DNA of 64,000 nucleotides. It comes from a virus. The DNA is taken from IMG/VR virus record IMGVR_UViG_3300012009_000091, positions 32,001 through 96,000 of that record; one strand, given 5' to 3'. Below are positions 3,568-64,000 of this stretch, in pieces; within the stretch, counting starts at the first letter, position 1, and each line of letters begins with the position of its first letter. The notes beneath the pieces were generated by a model. It did no database searches. It worked only from the letters and a program-made list of their open reading frames with translations, and was not told where the DNA came from. The position numbers and the translations under genes are program-made.

Positions 3568-4825
3568 TCAGTACCTTCTCACGAAGCGCGTGATCATTTC
3601 GAAGCCGTGCATCTACATGGTTCCTTTTGCCAGGGATGACGACCATCTCGTCGGTTCCTGGGACGGTCAGGTGGTACTCAGATCCTCTTCTGACCAAGAA
3701 TTTCTGTTTCACCAGCTCAGCGCGCAATGTGCCGCTCTCATCAATGGTTCCTATCGGCACGGTGAGCTCTTTTCCGTCGTAGTGATTGTGGTGATAAAAT
3801 CGGAATTCACACATCTCGCCTGTGGCGATCCCATATTTCCCTTTGTTGATGTATACGCGGTGCATATCAGACGTGGGAACGTGGGATGGGTTGCGGTCGT
3901 CTTTCGGGCCTATATATGTGCGTTCGTCCTTTTTCCCTTTCTCCACTTCAATGGTCACTGCTGAGTAGTACTGAACAGATTGACCACCACTGATTGATTT
4001 GTGGCTGACGGAATATGAAGATGTGTGAGCCATTCGAAATTGAGATACCCAGAAGAATGTCGTCTCTCGAAGTTTGTCCTCCTCTTCCATTTCTTCAAAA
4101 GGAGCCATCATGATTGCGTTCTGATTACGGTAGTGGGCGCTGAGAAGTAGTGCGCGCCCTTCGCCTCCTCTACCTTTACCAAACTCTCCAATGCCGCCTT
4201 CATCTACAGCGTCCCGTTCAGCGGCAGATGACATAGCGTCGATTGAGTTGAGAATTACGATTTGATAGATCCCGCTCTCCGCGAAGAGGCGCATGTAATC
4301 GAGTGCCGCTTCGGTCGTATCTGGCGTAACGACGTCGACTTCGCCAATCTGACACGATTTCATGGATTTCTTCTCAGCGGCCGTGAACTTTTTCTGTTCA
4401 ATCTCCTCTAGAATGTTGAGCTCTTCTGAGCTGTAGTTCACCTGCACACCGACATTGCGGGCGTGCTGCTTGTCCCATCCACCCTGTTCTAGGTAGATAA
4501 TGCCGACTGCGGATTCGTCTCCGTATCGTCTCTGGTTCTCTCGGATAGCGAGGTTCAAGAGGAGGTCTTTGCCAGAGCCTGGTTTTCCCACTAGTACAAC
4601 ATTGCATCCATGGGGGTAACCGCCGTTGGTGATCCGATCCAGTCCTATGACTCCGGTACTGCGTCTACGTAGGTAGACATTGGTGAGGTCTGATGCAGGG
4701 GTGAATACTGATCCGTCCAAATGCTTACGGGCATTTCGGATAAGTTCTTGTCGTTTTTTCCTTCTCCAGGCTAGACGGTCAGTCTTGTTGGCCTTCGATG
4801 TCTTCTTCGTTTTCTTCGTAGTCAT
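3515..4825 (-). CDS. recA: RecA/UvsX-family recombinase with variant Walker motifs
   Basis: STGVIGLDRITNGGYPHG, GKPGSGKD, YLE, ILNSIDAM, SQFR, SGGQSVQYYS. Confidence 0.85.
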   Translation of the reverse strand: MTTKKTKKTSKANKTDRLAWRRKKRQELIRNARKHLDGSVFTPASDLTNVYLRRRSTGVIGLDRITNGGYPHGCNVVLVGKPGSGKDLLLNLAIRENQRRYGDESAVGIIYLEQGGWDKQHARNVGVQVNYSSEELNILEEIEQKKFTAAEKKSMKSCQIGEVDVVTPDTTEAALDYMRLFAESGIYQIVILNSIDAMSSAAERDAVDEGGIGEFGKGRGGEGRALLLSAHYRNQNAIMMAPFEEMEEEDKLRETTFFWVSQFRMAHTSSYSVSHKSISGGQSVQYYSAVTIEVEKGKKDERTYIGPKDDRNPSHVPTSDMHRVYINKGKYGIATGEMCEFRFYHHNHYDGKELTVPIGTIDESGTLRAELVKQKFLVRRGSEYHLTVPGTDEMVVIPGKRNHVDARLRNDHALREKVLNALNVGKEEEIPEGEEA

Positions 4826-39578: not shown

Positions 39579-40653
39579 ATCCCTTCTCGGGTTCGGCCGG
39601 GGTACGGTTGATGATACGTTCACAGGTGCCGCTGGGTTAGGTTCTCTAGCCATGTCTGGGTGGTCTCCGTTGAAAGCCTGGACACATCCTCTATACTACA
39701 GCGCAATGGGTCGCTCACCGACAGCGGCGTTGAAGGGGTACGGTACCACCAAACGGCGTCTGTTAGGGTTGCCTGAACCGCGGTCACAGTCCAATCGACA
39801 GCAGTTTCGGAAAACGGGGGAGGAGAGTTCCATGCAGAAGACAGCGCTGGGAAGATTAGTCAGAAAGGCCAAGAATTGGTTGGCACCAGAACTCGGCACT
39901 CTTGCGCGACAAGCAGCTGATCCCGGCCGTCGTACTCTCCGTCCGTCTCTTCGAGCTCCTCTTGCTGTAGCTGGCCTTTCCGCTGCTGCGTATGGAGGCG
40001 CGCAAGGATTAGGATACTTGGGCGATCAAGCTAGTGTAATCGGGCGAGCGCGTGGGTATCGTCAGTTGATGAAAAAGTATGGACCGGAGCTTCACGCGAT
40101 TGCTGAGCAGACACATGTGCCTGTACCTGAAGAGCGGATGCGTGATGTTTATAACGCTCTCTACAAGATGTCTCCAGATGTTGCGAAAGAGCCGACTCTC
40201 GCTGCAGCTCAAATGGCGCCGCTTATTCGTGAAGCTGGTTCTCCGAGTGGGACTATGGAGGGGGCGGAGGGGCCTGTTCCTCGTGTTATGTTGGAGGGGG
40301 GATTGGAACAAATGGCTGTTCCATCTCGTATCCAGTCTGGGATGCCAGACTCGTTTGCGGACCGTACTCAACCATGGGTACGCAGTGCAGTCGGCGCTTT
40401 TGGGGACTACGACTTAAACACGGCGGCCCAACGTGAGATGATGAGAGCTGAGTTTCAGCAACCTGATTTGAAAGCCAAAAGTGACTTGGCGGCTGATCTG
40501 AGTTCGTTGGGTCGTCGACGTATGGAATTGCAAGCTCTCTATCGACAGAAGGCGGATGCTCTGAGAGCTGGAAACCAGACGGCTATTCAAGCTCTTGAAT
40601 CGCGGATTCGCCAACTTCGCACAGGTAGACCAGAGGCAGCGTCGAGGATTTGA
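39556..40653 (+). CDS. Basic, Gly/Ala-rich probable internal virion protein
   Basis: GAGGTG RBS; internal MQKTAL followed by LAVAGLSAAAYGGAQGLG. Confidence 0.6.
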   Translation: MPALDTAKSLLGFGRGTVDDTFTGAAGLGSLAMSGWSPLKAWTHPLYYSAMGRSPTAALKGYGTTKRRLLGLPEPRSQSNRQQFRKTGEESSMQKTALGRLVRKAKNWLAPELGTLARQAADPGRRTLRPSLRAPLAVAGLSAAAYGGAQGLGYLGDQASVIGRARGYRQLMKKYGPELHAIAEQTHVPVPEERMRDVYNALYKMSPDVAKEPTLAAAQMAPLIREAGSPSGTMEGAEGPVPRVMLEGGLEQMAVPSRIQSGMPDSFADRTQPWVRSAVGAFGDYDLNTAAQREMMRAEFQQPDLKAKSDLAADLSSLGRRRMELQALYRQKADALRAGNQTAIQALESRIRQLRTGRPEAASRI

Positions 40654-43340
40654 TGGAGAAGTTCATCAAAATAGGCGCCAGCTCAGGGGGCCATTGGGAC
40701 TCATTTTACCACATCATGCGCGGAGATCGTGCGGACATGGTGAAATGGGCGGCTGCTGGAAGTTATCATCCACGTATCGAAAGATACCTTGCGACAGAGC
40801 CTTTTACTCGTCGTGACCTCGTGCTCGTCGTGGTTCCTTTAGGAGCTCATGAGGCTTGGGGCTGTAATGTCAATGGAGATGCATTCCAGCAAGAGCAGAT
40901 TGAGCCGGCTCATCGAGATTGGGGTCACGAGAGTTTCGTCCATCACGCCAATGCGTTTGTTCATCATCAGAACAAAGATCCACAGAAAGGATTCGGAAAA
41001 GTACCTATTGCGGTATTTGAACCCGTGATGCGGAGAATCGAAGCCGTCTTCAAGCTTGACCGAGACAAGGCGGATCGTGTCGGGGCTGGCACCTATGTCC
41101 GAAAGCTCGATGAGGGGGGGTCAGCTGATCTCAGCATGGGGTGTTTTCCGGCTGGCACGCTCGTTACTATGGCGGACGGTACTCAGAAACCAATCGAGAC
41201 GGTAGTGGTGGGGGATCTGGTTCTGACGAGTACAGGTCGAGCGCAGCGTGTAACGTCATTACACCCTCGTGAGTACGAGGGGCCACTACTGCGCATCAAA
41301 GTTTTTGGGCAGATAGAAGTGCGAGTTACTCCCGAACACCCGTTTTGGGCCACCCCCCGATCTTCGGTGATCAAAAATCGACGTTGGGTAGGAAAGGAGG
41401 ACGGCGCTCAGTGGGTACACGCAAAGTGTTTGCAGGAAGGGGATTATCTCACCACTCCCGTACTCCAAGAGGTTCTGACTCCGTCATATGCGTCACCTGC
41501 GCTGGCGCGACTGCTAGGATACTACCTCGCTGAGGGTCACGTACTCTATAATAAAAAAGGTGAGTACGTCGGCATCGAGCTGGCTGTAAATCGGATGGAC
41601 GCAGTGCTGGACGAGATCGAAAGCCTGTGTCGTGATTTCGGGTCCAGAAACGCGCCAGCTATCCGTCCACGCACAAATTCCAAACACGCGTTGGCAATTC
41701 AGATATTCGACCCACACTTGGCGGAGCTTTGTTTCAACCACTGTGGGAGTTACGCACGCCACAAGCGACTATCCGAAGATGTCATGTGGTGGGATCCAGA
41801 GTTGCAGCGACAATTGATTGGGGCCTACATTAATGGGGACGGGGGACAGTTGGAATCATGGCAACCTGGGGCTGTGGTCCTCTCCACGTTATCTGATCAT
41901 CTCGCCGCGCAGATCCCGCAGCTTCTCTTTCGTTGTGGCGTCAAATCCAACACTCAGTTGTTACGACATGAATCCGGAGGTGGATTCAATAGCAGTGCCA
42001 CCTTTGAACACCAGATCTACATCGGGAAACATCAAGTTCCGTCGTTGTTGGATGTAGCGCGTCTCAAAATGCCAGAACTGAGTCGTGATACGAACCCTGG
42101 GGCAAAGTTGGAAGGCGGCCTTGTCTTCTCGAAACTCCGAGAGATTTCCACGGAGTTTTTTCAAGGTACGGTATTCAACTTCGAGGTGGAAGAAGACGAG
42201 TCGTATGTGGTGGAGGGCCTAGCTGTACACAATTGCAAGGTGCCCTATGACATTTGTTCCATTTGCGGCCAGGAGTCTAAGTCTGTCGCGAATTATTGTA
42301 CCTGTCTCAAAGATGAGATGTTGAAGATCGAACCGGATGGTCGGATTCACTGTGCCTATAATCCTCGTCCTCGATTCTTCGATCTCAGCATTGTTATTGT
42401 TCGGGCAGCTAAAGAAGCTGCCATCCTAGAAAAGGCCGCGGCAGCGGGTATGGTCATGGATCAGAAAGACCCAGTAGATTGGACGACATCTTCCTTTTCA
42501 TTGGATGATGATTCTGGTCTTTATTTGACTAAAGCCGCCAGCGCGAAGGAAGCTGACACCAAACTAGCGGAAATCGAGAAGAAGCTCCCTGAAGTCTTCC
42601 ATGAGATGGTCTGGCCGATGATACGTTCTGAGGAGGCTCTCCCTGAGAGTCTTATGGATCGGTTGTCGGATCATACTCTCCCTAAAAGTCTGGCCTCTAC
42701 TTCTGCTTGTGGGATTGTCCTTCGCCCGCGTGAGTTCCAGCGTTTGTATCTTAGGCGAACAGGGCGCCCAGAAATGGCTGAGGAATTACACAAAAAGCGG
42801 TGTATTTTTTCTCCGCGTGATAGTCGCCATGCTTATCGTCTCCAATCGGATGACATAGAAGAGAAGATTCTCCCCTTGTTACACGATCTCCTCCCGAAGA
42901 GGAGCGTGTTCCAGCCGTTTGTGAGTAAGCGCATTATCATTGTTCGTCTTCGCGGGGAGAGGCCGACTGAACCAGAACTTGTAGAAAAAACCAGTGAGGC
43001 CCTTGACGAAGTCGGAGAAGAGTACGCAAAATATATCAACGGTCTGGCTCGCTTGCCATCTCTGCTTAAATCTGCGATGGTACGACATGGAGATCTTTAT
43101 GATGCATTTGCGGCAGAATCATATGACCCGATGCGAAAGGTCGCCGGATCTCTTGCATCTATCGTTGGGGCTGGTGTTGGTGTCGTATTGCCGGTATACT
43201 TGATGGCGTCAAAGTGGCGTGCAGATGCGACTCGTGGATATGATCCGGGACTACTTAAGGGAATTGTGGCTGATTACCCCGCCACAACATCCATTGGGGT
43301 GTTGACAGGCCTGCGTTATTTGGGCAAAAGAGGGAAGTGA
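40653..43340 (+). CDS. Prohead maturation protease precursor containing an intein
   Basis: NGDAF, HHQNKDP (His), DLSMG (Ser), FFDLSIV..AAKEA: HK97/assemblin-like motifs; lies upstream of scaffold and capsid genes. Confidence 0.75.
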   Translation: MEKFIKIGASSGGHWDSFYHIMRGDRADMVKWAAAGSYHPRIERYLATEPFTRRDLVLVVVPLGAHEAWGCNVNGDAFQQEQIEPAHRDWGHESFVHHANAFVHHQNKDPQKGFGKVPIAVFEPVMRRIEAVFKLDRDKADRVGAGTYVRKLDEGGSADLSMGCFPAGTLVTMADGTQKPIETVVVGDLVLTSTGRAQRVTSLHPREYEGPLLRIKVFGQIEVRVTPEHPFWATPRSSVIKNRRWVGKEDGAQWVHAKCLQEGDYLTTPVLQEVLTPSYASPALARLLGYYLAEGHVLYNKKGEYVGIELAVNRMDAVLDEIESLCRDFGSRNAPAIRPRTNSKHALAIQIFDPHLAELCFNHCGSYARHKRLSEDVMWWDPELQRQLIGAYINGDGGQLESWQPGAVVLSTLSDHLAAQIPQLLFRCGVKSNTQLLRHESGGGFNSSATFEHQIYIGKHQVPSLLDVARLKMPELSRDTNPGAKLEGGLVFSKLREISTEFFQGTVFNFEVEEDESYVVEGLAVHNCKVPYDICSICGQESKSVANYCTCLKDEMLKIEPDGRIHCAYNPRPRFFDLSIVIVRAAKEAAILEKAAAAGMVMDQKDPVDWTTSSFSLDDDSGLYLTKAASAKEADTKLAEIEKKLPEVFHEMVWPMIRSEEALPESLMDRLSDHTLPKSLASTSACGIVLRPREFQRLYLRRTGRPEMAEELHKKRCIFSPRDSRHAYRLQSDDIEEKILPLLHDLLPKRSVFQPFVSKRIIIVRLRGERPTEPELVEKTSEALDEVGEEYAKYINGLARLPSLLKSAMVRHGDLYDAFAAESYDPMRKVAGSLASIVGAGVGVVLPVYLMASKWRADATRGYDPGLLKGIVADYPATTSIGVLTGLRYLGKRGK
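41142..42233 (+). mobile_element. Intein with LAGLIDADG homing endonuclease (364 aa)
   Basis: Starts CFPAGTLV, block B VTPEHPF, LLGYYLAEG and LIGAYINGDG, VFNFEVEEDESY, ends VHN followed by Cys. Confidence 0.96.
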
Positions 43341-55588: not shown

Positions 55589-56371
55589 GTGGCAAAACTC
55601 GAGGAATGGGACTTCTTCAATCGCAATGTCCAGAGTGGTCTGACTGAAGGCCAGTTTATGGCAGCCCAGTATACGATGATCGCTGCTGGACCGCCCAATC
55701 TAGCCTATCTCTCTGATACCAATCCATCAAATGATGATGCTGGAGTGGGTGAGAACGGGAGTGCTGTTGTGTTCCCTATGGGTTGCTCACAGCGATTCGG
55801 GATCAATCAAACACGTCAGCATGCGCGAGTCTGGGAAATTGGCTCTGAAAGGAGCTACTGGATTTCCGGTCGCGCGGTCGGGCAAATCACGCTTGGGAGG
55901 ATCGTATATCACGGTCCTAATCTCTTGCGATCACTATACGCTTACTACAGCACTACGCCGGATCCAGAGACTTTATATCCGTTTCCTTCTCTTATGGGCG
56001 ACAGTCCTGAGATCGAAGAGGCGAATAAAAATCGGAATCCACATAAAATTTCGATCTCTCCAGGGCACAAGAACATCTTCTTGAACCTGGCATCAGATCT
56101 ATTCGCGCAGACAATCGGCTTGCTGATCTACTTCAAGGACAGCAACGATGAGTCGGTGTATGCCTGCTATGCTGAGAATTGTGTGATTCCGACACATAGT
56201 TTAGGGCTCGATGCGGGTGGAACGGTCATGCAGGAGAACGTTCAGATGCAGTTTGAGCGTCTTCAGCCCGTTCACTTGACCAACGTTCTGTCGTTGGTTG
56301 ACATCACTTACTCGGGTTCTATGTCTGGTATTCCAAATAGACGGGACGTCTCGACAGGACGCAACCAGTAG
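55589..56371 (+). CDS. Tail tube protein
   Basis: Follows the sheath; QRFGINQ...RVWEIGS, YAENC, ENVQMQFE; AGGAGG before GTG. Confidence 0.7.
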   Translation: MAKLEEWDFFNRNVQSGLTEGQFMAAQYTMIAAGPPNLAYLSDTNPSNDDAGVGENGSAVVFPMGCSQRFGINQTRQHARVWEIGSERSYWISGRAVGQITLGRIVYHGPNLLRSLYAYYSTTPDPETLYPFPSLMGDSPEIEEANKNRNPHKISISPGHKNIFLNLASDLFAQTIGLLIYFKDSNDESVYACYAENCVIPTHSLGLDAGGTVMQENVQMQFERLQPVHLTNVLSLVDITYSGSMSGIPNRRDVSTGRNQ

Positions 56372-57293: not shown

Positions 57294-57701
57294 GTGGCCA
57301 ATACCGACGCGCTCATGCGGAAATTAGCAGCTGCTGCTCTTGAGAAGTCTGCCTTTACTCCCACTGAGACGGATTTCTGGGCAGCGGCTGCTGGTCCTCC
57401 TGGGGCAGCTTTGTCTGCGCCGGAAGGGCAAGGTACGGTCTCTCTGTTGGGATCTCTTGCCGGTCTGGGAGCGGGCTACTTTCTGGGCAAGAAACTCCAA
57501 CCTACTCTGGCGCGTCGTATGGGAACGAGGCTCGGTGGACTCCTTAGTCGCTATCCACAATATGTAGGTATGGCTGGGGGTTCTTTACTCGGAGCTCGAC
57601 TTGCTCGTAAAGCCCTCGCAGCTCGGGATGTTGAGGACCTAAGCCAGCAGTACGCGCAATATCGTTATGGACCGCCCAACCACTATGGCCCGCCCGGTTG
57701 A
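57294..57701 (+). CDS. Small glycine-zipper protein with KLA/EKSA leader
   Basis: MANTDALMRKLAAAALEKSAF; LLGSLAGLGAGYFLG and VGMAGGSLLGA. Confidence 0.7.
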   Translation: MANTDALMRKLAAAALEKSAFTPTETDFWAAAAGPPGAALSAPEGQGTVSLLGSLAGLGAGYFLGKKLQPTLARRMGTRLGGLLSRYPQYVGMAGGSLLGARLARKALAARDVEDLSQQYAQYRYGPPNHYGPPG

Positions 57702-58006
57702 ATGATCGGAAACTGACCCATATCGAATTTCCACATTGTATCATGGGGTCCTGGATAGAGGGTCCAGAGTCCTGCACGCTTGCCCACGATGGCCAGTATA
57801 TTGTCGTCCTGCGGGTTCAAGCCGGCTTCAAGGGCTAAGACTCGAATTGATTTCCCGGAGACGATTTGGAGCCTATTCTGAAGCGTCTCGACGAGATCCT
57901 CCGGCACTGGATCTTCGGGAAGAATGGCGAAGCGGTTAGGACCAACATGGTAGATCTTACCATGTTGTCCTGTTTGCACCCACGGGTGTGTACGTAGCCA
58001 GTTCAT
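57683..58006 (-). CDS. Hypothetical protein
   Basis: MNWLRTHPW...; start uncertain, no clear RBS. Confidence 0.45.
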   Translation of the reverse strand: MNWLRTHPWVQTGQHGKIYHVGPNRFAILPEDPVPEDLVETLQNRLQIVSGKSIRVLALEAGLNPQDDNILAIVGKRAGLWTLYPGPHDTMWKFDMGQFPIIQPGGP

Positions 58007-58068
58007 GTGAGAAGAATATCCGATAGAGGCTAAAAAGACCAGTTTGGGCTGGCCTTGGTAGGTAGGTA

Positions 58069-58245
58069 TTAGGGGCGGGACAGGGCTCTCCTGATCCCCG
58101 TCAGAGTAGCAGGTGGAGATGGCACCCGCGCTACCTGTCTTCCCTCGAGGAAGACGAGGATGTGGGTGCCGTCTTGCACTACTATGACCCGCTGACCGCG
58201 GATCTTGCGGGCCCAGCCCGCCCACTGAATTTTTTTACCTTCCAT
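58069..58245 (-). CDS. Small basic protein (58 aa)
   Basis: Below the track cutoff; GAGG RBS, MEGKKIQWAGWARK...; GTATAAG 32 nt upstream. Confidence 0.6.
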   Translation of the reverse strand: MEGKKIQWAGWARKIRGQRVIVVQDGTHILVFLEGRQVARVPSPPATLTGIRRALSRP

Positions 58246-58276
58246 GGTATTTTCCTCTCTCTAGTCTTTATATATC

Positions 58277-58283
58277 CTTATAC
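58277..58283 (-). promoter_or_regulatory. GTATAAG motif overlapping the upstream stop codon
   Basis: 32 nt upstream of ATG 58245. Confidence 0.6.
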
Positions 58284-58760
58284 GACTTGCTGGATGTATT
58301 CGATGGGCGGCTCATGGTAAATGTTCCAGTGGTATAACAGCCGTTGTTTGTCTGCCATCCGTGGATTTTTCAACCGACCAGGATACCGACCGTCTCGTAC
58401 CCAAGCTTCCATCAATTCACGGGCAACTAGGATAACACCTGGTTCGTTCTCCAGCTCTTCTTCTGCCTCTTGGACAGCCTGGACGATTGTCGGGGTCAAT
58501 ACGTATTGAACTCGATGGATGGAGAACATCTTTGTGTTGTCCACTTCAGATTTCTTGCCGAGGGATAGCGCAATGCGGCGCTCTCGAGATACTCCAGGAA
58601 CAGTGATCCATTGTCCTGTTGCCAAGTCTTGTTTGTTGAAGCGGTATGAATGCTCCGAACTGAAGTTGGCAATCCAGAATCCCGCGCGTGTGCCGTTGTC
58701 TCGATTTTCCCTTACGCTCATATCTACCCAAATTTTGGGCATTTGATCTAGAGGTCTCAT
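58278..58760 (-). CDS. Hypothetical protein
   Basis: AAGGAG RBS; GTATAAG upstream. Confidence 0.7.
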   Translation of the reverse strand: MRPLDQMPKIWVDMSVRENRDNGTRAGFWIANFSSEHSYRFNKQDLATGQWITVPGVSRERRIALSLGKKSEVDNTKMFSIHRVQYVLTPTIVQAVQEAEEELENEPGVILVARELMEAWVRDGRYPGRLKNPRMADKQRLLYHWNIYHEPPIEYIQQVV

Positions 58761-58798
58761 TTCTATTCTCCTTTGTATTAGATGCGGACCGTCTTTGA

Positions 58799-58805
58799 CT
58801 TATAC
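58799..58805 (-). promoter_or_regulatory. GTATAAG motif
   Basis: 39 nt upstream of ATG 58760. Confidence 0.7.
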
Positions 58806-58810
58806 TAAGA

Positions 58811-58831
58811 GGGAAGGGAAAATCCCTTCCC
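58811..58831 (-). terminator. 9-bp hairpin, probable terminator of candidate ncRNA B
   Basis: GGGAAGGGA-N3-TCCCTTCCC followed by TCTT on the minus strand; short U tract. Confidence 0.5.
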
Positions 58832-58838
58832 CCTACGG

Positions 58839-58947
58839 GAGGAAACTACCACGCTGCTGACGAGCTTGAGTCGCACAATATGCGTCTCAATATGCTCAAG
58901 CCAACAGCGTTCTAGTTTCCTCGATGCTTGTCCTTGCGTGCTACCTA
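58839..58947 (-). ncRNA. Candidate ncRNA B, long irregular hairpin
   Basis: GAGGAAACTA/TAGTTTCCTC, ACGCTGTTGGC/GTCAGCAGCGT and CTTGAG/CTCAAG stems; own GTATAAG; no credible ORF. Confidence 0.55.
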
Positions 58948-58954
58948 CTTATAC
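58948..58954 (-). promoter_or_regulatory. GTATAAG motif (TGGTATAAGTAGG)
   Basis: 13-nt identity with the 59139 site. Confidence 0.65.
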
Positions 58955-58970
58955 CATAGTAGCTAACACG

Positions 58971-59138
58971 TCGGGAGGGGGACTCCCCCCAGGGTCCGCT
59001 CGGACCATCCCGGTGGCCGCGGAAAGCTTTGCAGCTGAGCGAACCTTAGTCTAGGGTTTTGCCGTTCATAACGACCGCATCCCCGAGCCGCACCGGGTCG
59101 GTAATCGGTACTCACTCCTCCCGAGTGATTTCACCCTA
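58971..59138 (-). ncRNA. Candidate ncRNA A, multi-stem
   Basis: Closing stem TCGGGAGG/CCTCCCGA, CCCGGTG/CACCGGG, hairpins GGTCC-GAGC-GGACC and GTCGTT-ATG-AACGGC; own GTATAAG. Confidence 0.5.
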
Positions 59139-59145
59139 CTTATAC
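59139..59145 (-). promoter_or_regulatory. GTATAAG motif (TGGTATAAGTAGG)
   Basis: Intergenic; heads candidate ncRNA A. Confidence 0.65.
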
Positions 59146-59160
59146 CACGGTGAGATGTGT

Positions 59161-59397
59161 TCAAAGTTTGTCAATTAGAATCCGTGTCAAGACCCACCCG
59201 CGCCAGCTGGCATCGTGGGATGTCTCGATGTTCTCATCCCACCCTATATTGATCTCTTCATGGCATCGAGGGCAGGTAATCACCGTTGAATGTCCTGGTT
59301 CTTTCCCAAATCCCCAATGGTCGTGGAAGGATTGCATGCACGAAGGACATGTGAACTCGTCTGTCGGATAGGAGATTGTCACATGTTTATGCATCAA
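59161..59397 (-). CDS. Small zinc-ribbon protein
   Basis: FTCPSC...ITCPRC. Confidence 0.65.
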   Translation of the reverse strand: MMHKHVTISYPTDEFTCPSCMQSFHDHWGFGKEPGHSTVITCPRCHEEINIGWDENIETSHDASWRGWVLTRILIDKL

Positions 59398-59725
59398 TCC
59401 CCGCGGAGAAGTCTTCGGCTTCTTCTTCGGTCTGTTGCATCTCTTGGATCACTTGTTCTTCATCTTTTTTCGCGGGCGGAGGTGGAGAATTTTTGACCAT
59501 CTCATAGAATACCATGAGCGCATTCCGAATGATGTGACTCTCGTTTCGTGCATTGGTGTTTGCTAACAGTTCACACAGAGCTTGATGTTCCATCTCGTTC
59601 AACGTAATTGTCATTGAGTAGGGATGTTGTCCTCGCTGCTTTTTCTTCTTCATCTCTTGTCGTCGACGTTTGAGTTTTCTCTTCGCGCCAGGTGGAGGGG
59701 CAGTGTGGGTGTTGTTCTCTGTCAT
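59387..59725 (-). CDS. Ribbon-helix-helix-like DNA-binding protein
   Basis: YSMTITLNEMEHQALCELL...NESHIIRNAL; AAGGAG RBS. Confidence 0.6.
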   Translation of the reverse strand: MTENNTHTAPPPGAKRKLKRRRQEMKKKKQRGQHPYSMTITLNEMEHQALCELLANTNARNESHIIRNALMVFYEMVKNSPPPPAKKDEEQVIQEMQQTEEEAEDFSAGIDA

Positions 59726-59823
59726 TGATCTACTCTCCTTCTTTGTGGTGTGGAGGGGCGGTAAAGGATAGACGTGTCTTACCTTTCACTTCTTATCCCT
59801 CTTACTCCAACGTCACCTTGACT

Positions 59824-60117
59824 TCACTTCTTAGCTCGTAGATTGTCATTCACTTCCGGCGGAGGGCCAGATACCATCTGTGGCCACCCTCCGGTTTTGA
59901 TGTACCAGTAGATGAGATTGCGAACAATTACCTCGGGCGCGATCTTCTCTCTCAATTCGATCCCTAAATCCTTCGCTTCTTTGTTCAGTCGGTGGGCATG
60001 TGAACGTAGTGCCCTCTCCCAACGGTGGGGAATGGGGACCTGTAAATCGAGTGTAAAAACCTCTTCAGTGTGTCTGATCGGCCCCAATAGTATGATATCT
60101 TCCGCTGAGTTCCTCAT
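59824..60117 (-). CDS. Small protein, possibly RHH-like
   Basis: LDLQVPIPHRWERAL...PEVIVRNLIYWYI. Confidence 0.45.
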   Translation of the reverse strand: MRNSAEDIILLGPIRHTEEVFTLDLQVPIPHRWERALRSHAHRLNKEAKDLGIELREKIAPEVIVRNLIYWYIKTGGWPQMVSGPPPEVNDNLRAKK

Positions 60118-60131
60118 GAGTGTAAGATACT

Positions 60132-60228
60132 CTTACAGTGAGCTTTACACAAGTCTGGAAAGTTCGCTTTGCGCCTAATTGAGATGCTTTTACAGGTAAT
60201 TTTACACAGAGGTTTACACCACAGTTTA
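60132..60228. repeat. (C/T)TTACA direct repeats with 12-bp period
   Basis: Copies at 60132, 60144 and 60189, 60201, 60213, (60225 partial); inverted TGTAAG at 60121. Confidence 0.7.
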
Positions 60229-60231
60229 TGT

Positions 60232-60238
60232 GTATAAG
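60232..60238 (+). promoter_or_regulatory. GTATAAG motif
   Basis: Heads the rightward accessory operon at a strand switch. Confidence 0.65.
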
Positions 60239-60334
60239 GCGGATGTTGAACGCCGGCTTGTGTTGCCTGCTTGGCAGCCGGATCCCCGGCGTTCTTCTTT
60301 ATCATGTAGACCAGTAAATCAAAGGAGAACATTG

Positions 60335-60748
60335 ATGGATGCAAGTACGACATTGGCCGTTACAGCTACGTTTGTACCCCCTGAGCGGGTACTGTCCCTT
60401 TTCCGAGCGGACGGGGTGGTGGTTCTTCATGGACTTTATATTGTCTCGCACGGAGGCAAGGCCAGAGGACCAGTGCAGTTGACTGTGGGAGATACGGAAA
60501 TCCTCTCTTCATCACAAGATCATCGGTGGGGTAATCATGAGCAGGTCAATGCCTGCTCTCCCGTACTGGTGTTAGATCAAGCTGAGATTATTTTCCGTAC
60601 GGAGTCTAGCACGTTGACCAGTACCACTTTCACCGTTCTCGCGTTGTACTCCCCGACGTCCGCGAAAGCGCGGCTGGTTAGGGTACCGCTTGAACCCACC
60701 AGACCTAAGCCTGATCCAGAGAAGGCAAGACGATTGCTTAGTCGCTAA
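60335..60748 (+). CDS. Hypothetical protein
   Basis: AAGGAG before MDASTTL. Confidence 0.6.
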   Translation: MDASTTLAVTATFVPPERVLSLFRADGVVVLHGLYIVSHGGKARGPVQLTVGDTEILSSSQDHRWGNHEQVNACSPVLVLDQAEIIFRTESSTLTSTTFTVLALYSPTSAKARLVRVPLEPTRPKPDPEKARRLLSR

Positions 60749-63026: not shown

Positions 63027-64000
63027 ATGACGAAGGAACAGATGAATGATGAAGATCGGACTCTTCTGAGTAATTTCGTAACCAATGTCGAGGGCGATGT
63101 GTTCGCTCTAAAGAATCTGTCGCCGGAACTTCAGGCGGCCGTATTCGGTCGATACGCTCGCAGCTCTAAGGGAGCACGAACGTTGTTGGTGACGGAATTC
63201 CGCGACCAACTGACTGATCCGGAACAGAGTGAGCGGGCTCGAGAATTCAATAATCGTGTGTTCAACGAGTTCGGACATGCATCATTGTCTCAACTGTGCA
63301 CGGTTCATCTCGGAATCGAGGGCGTGAGCCAGATTGCCACGAAACTCATCGAGCGGAGTCGTCTCTGCAGCTACATGGAGCAGAGTACACGTGCCATCGA
63401 CTGGTCCAACAATCCGCAATACGTAGTCCCGTCCGAGCTCACTAATGTTGGGCTCGAGGAGCCGTACCTGGAAATCTGCGATCGTGCGTTTACCTGGTAC
63501 GCTAAGTGGATGCGTCGTTTACTAGATGCCGTCTACAACCCCCAGAAGAAGCGCCGTATAGACAAGTCTGCGGTGCTGGACATTGTACGCGGAGCTTTGC
63601 CGCTGAGTATCAAGAGCTCACTTGGCATGGTGGGTAGCGCACAGTCCTATGCATCGTTGATTTCGCGATTGTGGACTTCACCGTACGTTGAGGCAGTTGA
63701 GATCGGAGACAAAATATTCGATCAGTTGACACAGGTGGCTCCTACGTTCATGCGTCACACTAAAGACAGTGTGGGATTCCGTACACAGCGTGGTCAGTTC
63801 CTCCTCAACGAGGAGGATGATCTATTGGGTCCAGAGAGCGTGACCCTACAGGGTCCAAGTGTTCGGCTCATTGATTGGGACCAAGACTGGTTGCAGAAAC
63901 TGACGTCGGCCGTACTATTCGAGCGAGGTTATGGGCTCGAATACGGAAGACAGGCGGCCAACAAACTGACGTATGCCCAGGCCCTGAGGCTCGTGGAAGG
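63027..64000 (+). CDS. thyX: Flavin-dependent thymidylate synthase, long form, partial
   Basis: Not in the ORF track (runs off the edge). FVTNVEGDVFAL, GRYARS, EFGHASL, IERSRLCSYMEQSTR. Confidence 0.88.
   Translation, partial: MTKEQMNDEDRTLLSNFVTNVEGDVFALKNLSPELQAAVFGRYARSSKGARTLLVTEFRDQLTDPEQSERAREFNNRVFNEFGHASLSQLCTVHLGIEGVSQIATKLIERSRLCSYMEQSTRAIDWSNNPQYVVPSELTNVGLEEPYLEICDRAFTWYAKWMRRLLDAVYNPQKKRRIDKSAVLDIVRGALPLSIKSSLGMVGSAQSYASLISRLWTSPYVEAVEIGDKIFDQLTQVAPTFMRHTKDSVGFRTQRGQFLLNEEDDLLGPESVTLQGPSVRLIDWDQDWLQKLTSAVLFERGYGLEYGRQAANKLTYAQALRLVE

What the first reader, a model, noticed from the sequence alone, without database searches (positions are those of the whole stretch)
58806..58954. 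Promoter-driven long hairpin RNA with a duplicated loop motif (candidate ncRNA B)
Seen: GTATAAG, then an 84-nt irregular hairpin (58839-58922) with 10-, 11- and ~6-bp stems including G-U pairs that work on the minus-strand RNA, an apical region with GCATATTG twice, then a 9-bp terminator-like hairpin. No credible ORF. Inference: a discrete ~140-nt early RNA, possibly a protein decoy or antitoxin-like RNA.
Basis: partly seen in the sequence, partly recalled or inferred. Interest (0 to 1): 0.7.

Follow-up and report, generated by a model that had tools for sequence, protein, structure and literature searches.

The report
Orphan promoter-to-terminator hairpin RNA unit
An uncultured 167-kb phage carries a short gene-less unit, set between its usual start and stop signals, that should yield a ~135-nt rod-shaped hairpin RNA; the structure is real, but it has no relatives and no known function.

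Summary
On the minus strand a GTATAAG motif (58954-58948) is followed by a 19-nt leader, an 84-nt irregular hairpin (58922-58839) and a 12-bp stem-loop (58834-58808). The hairpin has 35 pairs, -49.2 kcal/mol and z -8.9. The stem-loop runs into TTAG fused to the next GTATAAG (58805-58799), which lies 38 nt before a 160-aa ORF.

Both boundary signals are statistically supported across the 167-kb phage genome:
- 15 of 32 GTATAAG copies have an SD plus start codon 20-45 nt downstream (P 3e-12).
- 10 of 32 have TTAG 0-13 nt upstream (P 5e-9).

By the phage's own punctuation, B is therefore a separate transcription unit without an ORF. That makes it most likely a discrete ~135-nt RNA, which may also form the 3' end of a ~330-nt RNA from the upstream promoter.

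B is a singleton. It has no Rfam match, no paralogue in the genome, and no counterpart in the two more distant relatives that keep the locus. In those relatives the conserved upstream leader ("A") runs straight into a gene. No covariation or expression test was possible, so function is inferred only. A type III antitoxin reading fails its tests. This is an ordinary-looking orphan phage small RNA of moderate interest. The scan had noted this same stretch before, in another window of this genome.

The parts
59139..59145 (-). Upstream promoter-like GTATAAG (P1). It shares the 13-nt core TGGTATAAGTAGG with P2 and drives the conserved structured leader 'A'. Transcripts from here probably run on into B.
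   Evidence: fold of the P1-to-terminator transcript
58962..59131 (-). Element A, a ~170-nt GC-rich leader ending in GTTAGC. It is conserved in two related phages, where it is followed directly by SD+ATG. It gives the context for B and is not part of B.
58948..58954 (-). P2, the GTATAAG -10-like element of unit B. GTATAAGTAGGTAG is identical over 14 nt to the promoter of the A-like leader in relative L124.
58923..58941 (-). Predicted single-stranded 5' leader of B, about 19 nt. The start site is inferred at ~58941-58942, 6-7 nt after the -10-like element, and has not been mapped.
   Evidence: inference (leader lengths at other GTATAAG sites)
58839..58922 (-). 84-nt rod-like irregular hairpin with 35 pairs (32 Watson-Crick, 3 G-U).
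   Evidence: (I1)
58876..58895 (-). Two copies of GCATATTG, 12 nt apart, in the apical part of the hairpin.
58808..58834 (-). 12-bp G/A-rich versus C/U-rich stem-loop (loop UUU). It belongs to the phage's 'stem + TTAG' unit-end class.
58799..58808 (-). TTAGTATAAG, where the unit-end TTAG is fused to the next promoter-like GTATAAG (P3). P3 lies 38 nt before the ATG of the 160-aa ORF.
58278..58760 (-). 160-aa ORFan downstream, with its own promoter P3 and SD. It matches no family and the AF2 model is unusable.

Best explanation
B is an independent non-coding transcription unit of an uncultured 167-kb tailed phage.

Proposed working:
- RNA polymerase starts about 7 nt after the GTATAAG at 58954-58948.
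- It transcribes a 19-nt leader and the 84-nt rod-like hairpin.
- It stops or is released at the 12-bp stem-loop + TTAG at 58834-58805, giving an RNA of about 135 nt.
- Transcripts from the upstream promoter P1 (59145) probably read through the weak end of element A and end at the same place, giving an A-B RNA of about 330 nt.
- The next gene has its own promoter fused to B's terminator. The only dedicated product of P2 is therefore the hairpin RNA.

Shown: the structure, the promoter and terminator grammar, the absence of an ORF, and the strand preference.

Inferred: that the RNA accumulates and acts in trans through its ~35-bp double-stranded rod. It might be bound or cut by a dsRNA-specific protein such as RNase III, or act as a protein-binding decoy. 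It is less likely to act by antisense pairing, because no target was found in the phage. The unit lies in a variable cargo slot just downstream of a conserved leader and looks like a lineage-specific acquisition.
For: Structure:
- The hairpin is far beyond chance and well defined: -49.2 kcal/mol, z -8.9, MFE 65% of the ensemble. It folds identically in longer contexts.
- The strand preference points to the minus strand. Three G-U pairs there are mismatches on the plus strand, and the folds give -72 against -62 kcal/mol. This is the strand of the flanking genes.

Promoter:
- GTATAAG occurs 32 times in the genome.
- 15 copies have an SD plus start (ORF of 30 aa or more) 20-45 nt downstream on the same strand, against 4.7% of random positions (P 3e-12).
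- P2 shares 13 nt with P1 and 14 nt with the promoter of the homologous leader in relative L124.

Terminator:
- The 3' stem-loop has the same design as about 8 other unit ends (purine arm, pyrimidine arm, then TTAG).
- 10 of 32 GTATAAG have TTAG 0-13 nt upstream (P 5e-9), twice as the same TTAGTATAAG fusion.

No ORF: there is no ATG in the unit.

Precedent in the same genome: a ~410-nt ORF-poor structured unit (z -4.55) has the same promoter ... TTTTTAGC-promoter layout.
Against: - No conservation. The two relatives that keep the locus (terminase and sheath 52-57% identical) have the A-like leader but no B.
- A covariance model of the hairpin finds only itself in the whole genome and in the held parts of five relatives.
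- No transcript data could be obtained.
- The terminator has no U-run after the stem. The polymerase that reads GTATAAG is unknown: there is no -35 and the last base is G, not T.
- The three G-U pairs give only about 1-in-8 support for the strand.
- A young, unconstrained insertion would look the same.
Confidence: 0.5

Rival explanations
1. B is a cis-acting punctuation element, not an RNA gene. In this reading the long hairpin is an RNase III-type processing or 3'-stabilising structure. Together with the stem-loop + TTAG it ends and insulates transcripts coming from P1, element A and the upstream small-gene operon. P2 would be an incidental duplicate of the P1 core.
For: - About 35 bp of interrupted dsRNA is the right size for RNase III (established knowledge of T7 and lambda sites).
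- Element A ends without a strong stem next to its TTAGC, so read-through from P1 into B is likely.
- The 13-nt P1/P2 identity looks like a duplication.
- In relatives, A is a 5' leader of an mRNA rather than a free RNA.
Against: - Other unit ends in this genome use a single short stem + TTAG. None carries an extra 84-nt rod.
- P2 has a full-consensus core identical to a relative's working-position promoter.
- A processing site has no need for a terminator followed at once by a fresh promoter.
Confidence: 0.22
2. B is a functionless young insertion or inverted duplication. It would be a recombination scar in a variable cargo slot that happens to lie between two promoter copies.
For: - B is absent from all relatives holding the locus, and the slot between A and the conserved 107-aa gene differs in every phage.
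- It has no paralogue and no target.
- The duplicated promoter core suggests promoter-mediated recombination.
Against: - The arms have diverged only in ways that keep a single dominant RNA fold. All three transition differences are G-U on the transcribed strand.
- The unit is cleanly bounded by complete copies of both punctuation signals.
Confidence: 0.15
3. B is a DNA-level palindrome, such as a cruciform or a protein-binding site (operator, origin, recombination site). The two GCATATTG copies would be half-sites.
For: - The inverted repeat also folds as DNA (-27.3 kcal/mol, z -7.8) and on the plus strand.
- Small RHH-like and zinc-ribbon genes lie just upstream.
Against: - The G-U/A-C asymmetry favours RNA on the minus strand.
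- GCATATTG is not enriched elsewhere, and 12-nt spacing does not fit a helical repeat.
- There is no GC-skew turn here.
- No recombinase or replication gene lies next to it.
Confidence: 0.08
4. B is the RNA antitoxin of a type III-like toxin-antitoxin pair, with the 160-aa ORF as toxin.
For: The layout promoter, structured RNA, terminator, ~160-aa gene resembles ToxIN loci (established knowledge).
Against: - There are no tandem direct repeats.
- The 160-aa protein matches no ToxN/AbiQ/CptN or any other family.
- The gene has its own promoter after the terminator.
- The protein has no homologues at all.
Confidence: 0.03

Closest known systems
RNase III processing hairpins of phage early transcripts (T7 R0.3/R1.1-type sites, lambda N-leader and sib), from established knowledge
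   Same: An irregular hairpin of two or more helical turns, with small internal loops, lying in a non-coding gap of a phage transcription unit just downstream of tandem promoters.
   Different: - B has its own promoter and is followed by a terminator and a fresh promoter.
- No cleavage data exist.
- The host and its RNase III are unknown.
Short promoter-proximal terminated phage RNAs (lambda 6S RNA from pR' to tR'; lambda OOP; P22 sar), from established knowledge
   Same: A promoter, then a short structured non-coding transcript of 70-200 nt, then a terminator, set just upstream of genes.
   Different: - No Q-like antiterminator was recognised nearby.
- The downstream gene has its own promoter, so read-through control is not required.
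- No antisense target was found in the phage.
RNA anti-CRISPRs (Racrs, solitary repeat units; PMC10651486)
   Same: A small promoter-driven hairpin-forming non-coding RNA in a phage genome. Another first-reader note, which I did not check, says the phage may carry a Csx3-type ring nuclease.
   Different: - Racrs mimic a 28-37-nt CRISPR repeat of the host, whereas B is an 84-nt rod.
- No host or repeat is known to compare with.
- No second copy or mini-array exists.
Type III toxin-antitoxin antitoxin RNAs (ToxI)
   Same: The order promoter, RNA, terminator, ~160-aa gene.
   Different: There are no tandem repeats, no recognisable toxin family, and an extra promoter.

Membership tests
Any Rfam family | Score at or above the family's gathering threshold | tested here: not met
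   There are no hits in the window or in the rest of the genome. The best sub-threshold match is mir-1388, 22.5 bits against a threshold of 58, which reflects hairpin shape only.
Type III TA antitoxin RNA | Two or more tandem direct repeats of ~34-47 nt | tested here: not met
   TRF finds no repeat array in 58806-58954. The only repeat is an 8-mer occurring twice.
Type III TA antitoxin RNA | Downstream ToxN/AbiQ/CptN/TenpN-type endoribonuclease | tested here: not met
   The 160-aa protein has no match in Pfam, PHROGs or PADLOC. The structure model is unusable, with pLDDT 34.
Type III TA antitoxin RNA | One promoter upstream of the RNA, with the terminator setting the RNA:toxin ratio | tested here: not met
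   A separate GTATAAG lies between the terminator and the gene, 38 nt before the ATG.
RNase III processing site | About 20 bp or more of (interrupted) dsRNA within a transcript | tested here: met
   35 pairs in 84 nt.
RNase III processing site | Specific cleavage by host RNase III | not testable with these tools
   The host is unknown and no RNA data are available.
Canonical intrinsic terminator | GC-rich stem followed by a U-run | tested here: inconclusive
   There is a 12-bp stem, but the tail is UAGUAUAAGU. It fits the phage's own 'stem + TTAG' class, and the simple scan did not call it.
Racr / solitary CRISPR repeat unit | Sequence and structure mimic a CRISPR repeat of the host | not testable with these tools
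   The host is unknown. No other copy is present in the phage.
6S-type RNA polymerase-sequestering RNA | A rod of about 180 nt with a large central bubble | tested here: not met
   The rod is 84 nt and its largest interruption is a 2x2 loop. There is no Rfam 6S match.

The most novel reading that the evidence does not exclude
B is one of several promoter-driven structured RNAs that this phage uses as RNA-based counter-defence. In this reading it is a highly expressed dsRNA-like rod that titrates or misleads a host dsRNA- or repeat-binding immune protein (Racr-like in logic, different in form). It would have been acquired as a cargo cassette in a variable slot behind a conserved leader.
Probability: 0.1. 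Interest if true: 0.75.

Novelty: new member of a known kind. Interest (0 to 1): 0.35.

Why it matters
If the RNA is made, it adds an unclassified small structured RNA to a deeply divergent phage lineage from microbial mats. By the same punctuation, that lineage seems to carry several non-coding units, which would make it a good system for asking what phage-encoded RNAs do.

On present evidence B itself is an orphan with no conservation. Its value is mainly as a well-bounded test case for the phage's promoter and terminator grammar.

Tried and rejected
Searches for relatives of B or its neighbours:
- Phage database, blastn of 1.6 kb around B: no match.
- Relatives through the 160-aa neighbour: none in viral contigs, and only itself among 5.8 billion proteins.
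- Exact 22-nt stem pattern in viral contigs: none.
- Pattern 'GCATATTG N4 GCATATTG' in viral contigs: 106 hits, all limited to the pattern itself with no flanking similarity, so chance.
- Metagenome scan with the conserved 107-aa neighbour: only the already known relative.
- Viral-contig scan with the 112-aa neighbour: none.

Other contigs of the phage and its relatives:
- A second contig of the same phage (ENA ERZ922772, microbial mat) has 1 mismatch in 14.7 kb, so it gives no variation.
- Contigs of the ~80%-nt-identical relative (JGI 3300037504) stop short of B. One ends 200 nt after the sheath gene. The other ends 18 nt inside the 160-aa gene, about 100 nt short of B.

Tests on B itself:
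- Covariance model of the hairpin against the whole genome and five relatives: only itself.
- Antisense or paralogue search in the phage: nothing above 12 nt.
- The 19-nt match at 63786-63804 (I4) is same-sense to B's 3' arm and at chance level.
- tRNA/tmRNA scan: none.

Other attempts:
- AF2 model of the 160-aa protein: pLDDT 34, so it was not searched further.
- Whole-record search of the relatives' contigs by handle: those records are not held.

Full report
**Where it lies**

The window is bases 32001-96000 of a 167,069-bp IMG/VR phage record with direct terminal repeats. A second, virtually identical contig comes from a microbial-mat metagenome, with 1 mismatch in 14.7 kb.

The phage is far from anything in the phage collection. 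It encodes a family A DNA polymerase, a DnaB-like helicase, a gpA-type terminase, an intein-bearing 896-aa protein and a long plus-strand structural block ending at 57701.

The finding lies in a short minus-strand gene cluster (57683-60353) that converges on that block. More exactly, it sits in a 400-nt ORF-free gap between a 78-aa zinc-ribbon ORF (59161-59397) and a 160-aa ORFan (58278-58760).

**The observation**

Read on the minus strand, the unit has these parts in order:
- GTATAAG at 58954-58948;
- a 19-nt unpaired stretch;
- an 84-nt hairpin at 58922-58839;
- five unpaired bases;
- a 12-bp stem-loop at 58834-58808;
- TTAG fused to another GTATAAG at 58805-58799;
- 38 nt later, the ATG of the 160-aa ORF, preceded by an SD.

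The hairpin has 35 pairs in helices of 10, 11, 4, 5 and 5 bp, separated by small loops and bulges. It folds at -49.2 kcal/mol, the MFE is 65% of the ensemble, and z is -8.9. It forms unchanged inside the longer transcripts that could cover it.

Three of the pairs are G-U, and these become mismatches on the plus strand. The 149-nt stretch folds 10 kcal/mol better as minus-strand RNA. The strand evidence is modest: three of three transitions on one side has odds of about 1 in 8. It does agree with the direction of the flanking genes.

GCATATTG is indeed present twice, 12 nt apart. The motif is not enriched in the genome, and a repeated 8-mer in 84 nt is only marginally unusual. The unit contains no ATG and no credible frame.

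**Are the boundary signals real?**

Yes, by genome-wide statistics. GTATAAG occurs 32 times in the genome:
- 15 copies have an SD plus start codon of an ORF of 30 aa or more 20-45 nt downstream on the same strand. Only 4.7% of random positions do (P 3e-12).
- No -35 element is shared, and the last base is always G. The polymerase or sigma factor that reads the motif is therefore unknown.
- 10 of the 32 copies have TTAG 0-13 nt upstream (P 5e-9).

TTAG in turn often follows a stem whose 3' arm is pyrimidine-rich. B's 3' stem-loop is a close look-alike of the one at genome 31674. The fusion TTAGTATAAG recurs at genome 109220.

The same layout (promoter, ORF-poor structured stretch of ~410 nt with z -4.55, TTTTTAGC, next promoter, gene) occurs at genome 157,966-158,392. 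By the phage's own punctuation, B is therefore a separate unit with no ORF in it.

**Comparative evidence**

The 160-aa neighbour has no homologue.

Through the terminase and the 900-aa sheath-like protein I found a small family. It comprises one relative at 89% sheath identity (~80% DNA identity) and five at about 52%.

Two of the distant relatives hold the syntenic locus: L008 from JGI 3300017989 and L124 from a Logan assembly.
- Both keep the conserved 107-aa gene at the end of the cluster.
- Both keep a promoter plus ~190-210-nt leader homologous to the element upstream of B ("A"). GTATAAGTA, a CAAAACCC core, GGGGAG and a terminal GTTAGC are invariant.
- In both, GTTAGC is followed within 15 nt by an SD and the start of a gene. 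In our phage the same point is followed by P2, B, the terminator, P3 and the ORFan.
- The genes between A and the 107-aa gene are unrelated in the three phages.

B therefore sits in a variable cargo slot. L124 also has promoter-unit-TTAGC cassettes in tandem here, but with other contents, one being an 18-codon hydrophobic ORF.

A covariance model of the hairpin finds nothing but itself in the whole genome and in the held parts of five relatives.

The close relative's contigs end 18 nt inside the 160-aa gene, about 100 nt short of B. The one informative comparison is therefore missing, and no covariation test was possible.

**What it most likely is**

The cleanest reading is a stand-alone non-coding transcription unit.
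- P2 has a full-consensus core. It shares 13 nt with P1 and 14 nt with the promoter of the A-like leader in L124.
- The terminator belongs to the phage's own class.
- The next gene brings its own promoter, so the only product P2 can be for is the hairpin RNA.
- Element A ends without a strong stem next to its TTAGC. Transcripts from P1 probably also run through B and end at the same terminator.

What the RNA does is inferred only. No antisense target longer than 12 nt exists in the phage. A ~35-bp rod suggests recognition by a dsRNA-specific protein, either RNase III cutting or a protein-binding decoy role.

**Rival readings**

- A purely cis-acting processing and insulating element for upstream transcripts is the main rival.
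- A functionless young insertion cannot be excluded, given the lack of conservation.
- A DNA-level role is disfavoured by the G-U asymmetry, by the lack of motif enrichment and by the absence of any replication or recombination context.
- The antitoxin idea fails its defining tests: no tandem repeats, no recognisable toxin, and an extra promoter.

**Comparison with known systems**

No Rfam family matches anywhere in the genome. In form, B resembles phage RNase III sites. In layout, it resembles short promoter-proximal terminated RNAs such as lambda 6S and OOP. In logic, it could resemble RNA anti-CRISPRs (PMC10651486). Membership in any of these could not be shown. I file it as a new, orphan member of the broad kind 'phage-encoded small structured RNA unit'.

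**Verdict**

The interpretation as a discrete RNA is plausible (about 0.5). Its function is unknown and its interest is moderate to low until the close relative's sequence or transcript data are obtained.

Noticed in passing
window 58962-59145 (-); L008:11521-11752 (-); L124:12745-12968 (-): The element upstream of B ('A') is conserved with its GTATAAGTA promoter in two phages whose terminase is only ~57% identical. A CAAAACCC core, GGGGAG and a terminal GTTAGC are invariant. In the relatives it is the 5' leader of the first gene of a variable slot. Its fold alone is not exceptional (z -1.6).
   Followed up: partly
window 57683-58760 versus L008:10792-11521 and L124:11997-12744: The genes between the conserved leader A and the conserved 107-aa gene are unrelated in the three phages (160+58 aa, 106 aa, 85 aa). 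This looks like a cargo hot spot.
   Followed up: partly
L124:12968-13128 (-): In the relative, a GTATAAGT promoter drives an SD plus an 18-codon hydrophobic ORF (MEFVLLGTILVGLVLANR). A 9-bp hairpin and a stem + TTAGC follow, just before the next promoter. This could be a small membrane peptide cassette.
   Followed up: no
genome 133,600-138,400; 139,685-139,844; 155,360-155,519; 161,210-162,294 (outside the window; loci L118-L120): These tracts are packed with back-to-back near-perfect hairpins, down to -74 kcal/mol per 110 nt. Some lie inside long ORFs and some in ORF-free stretches downstream of GTATAAGT promoters. No Rfam family or tRNA was found in them.
   Followed up: partly
L118 about 4085-4140 (-), genome about 137,085-137,140: A tRNA-like 3' half (a stem, then a GGTTCGATTCCC T-arm motif, then an acceptor-like closing helix) that ARAGORN does not call.
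   Followed up: no
genome 157,966-158,392 (-), L132:1765-2193: A ~410-nt structured unit (z -4.55) without a convincing ORF lies between a GTATAAGT promoter and TTTTTAGC plus the next promoter. This is the same grammar as B.
   Followed up: partly
window 59128-59152 and 58938-58966 (-): Both P1 and P2 sit inside short inverted repeats of different sequence (TCACC...GGTGA around P1; GCTACTA...TAGGTAGC around P2). These could be operators or chance.
   Followed up: no
whole genome: The promoter-like motif always ends in G (TATAAG) and has no shared -35. This is unusual for a primary sigma factor and hints at a phage-specific sigma or polymerase.
   Followed up: no
window 40650-43340 (+): The 896-aa ORF carries Hint/intein and LAGLIDADG matches, so an intein lies in a structural-module gene. 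The homologue in the relative is 532 aa.
   Followed up: no
L134 and L121 (JGI 3300037504): The assembly of the ~80%-identical relative breaks at window-equivalent 55760-55780 and at 58742. The second break is just before the promoter and hairpin region.
   Followed up: partly
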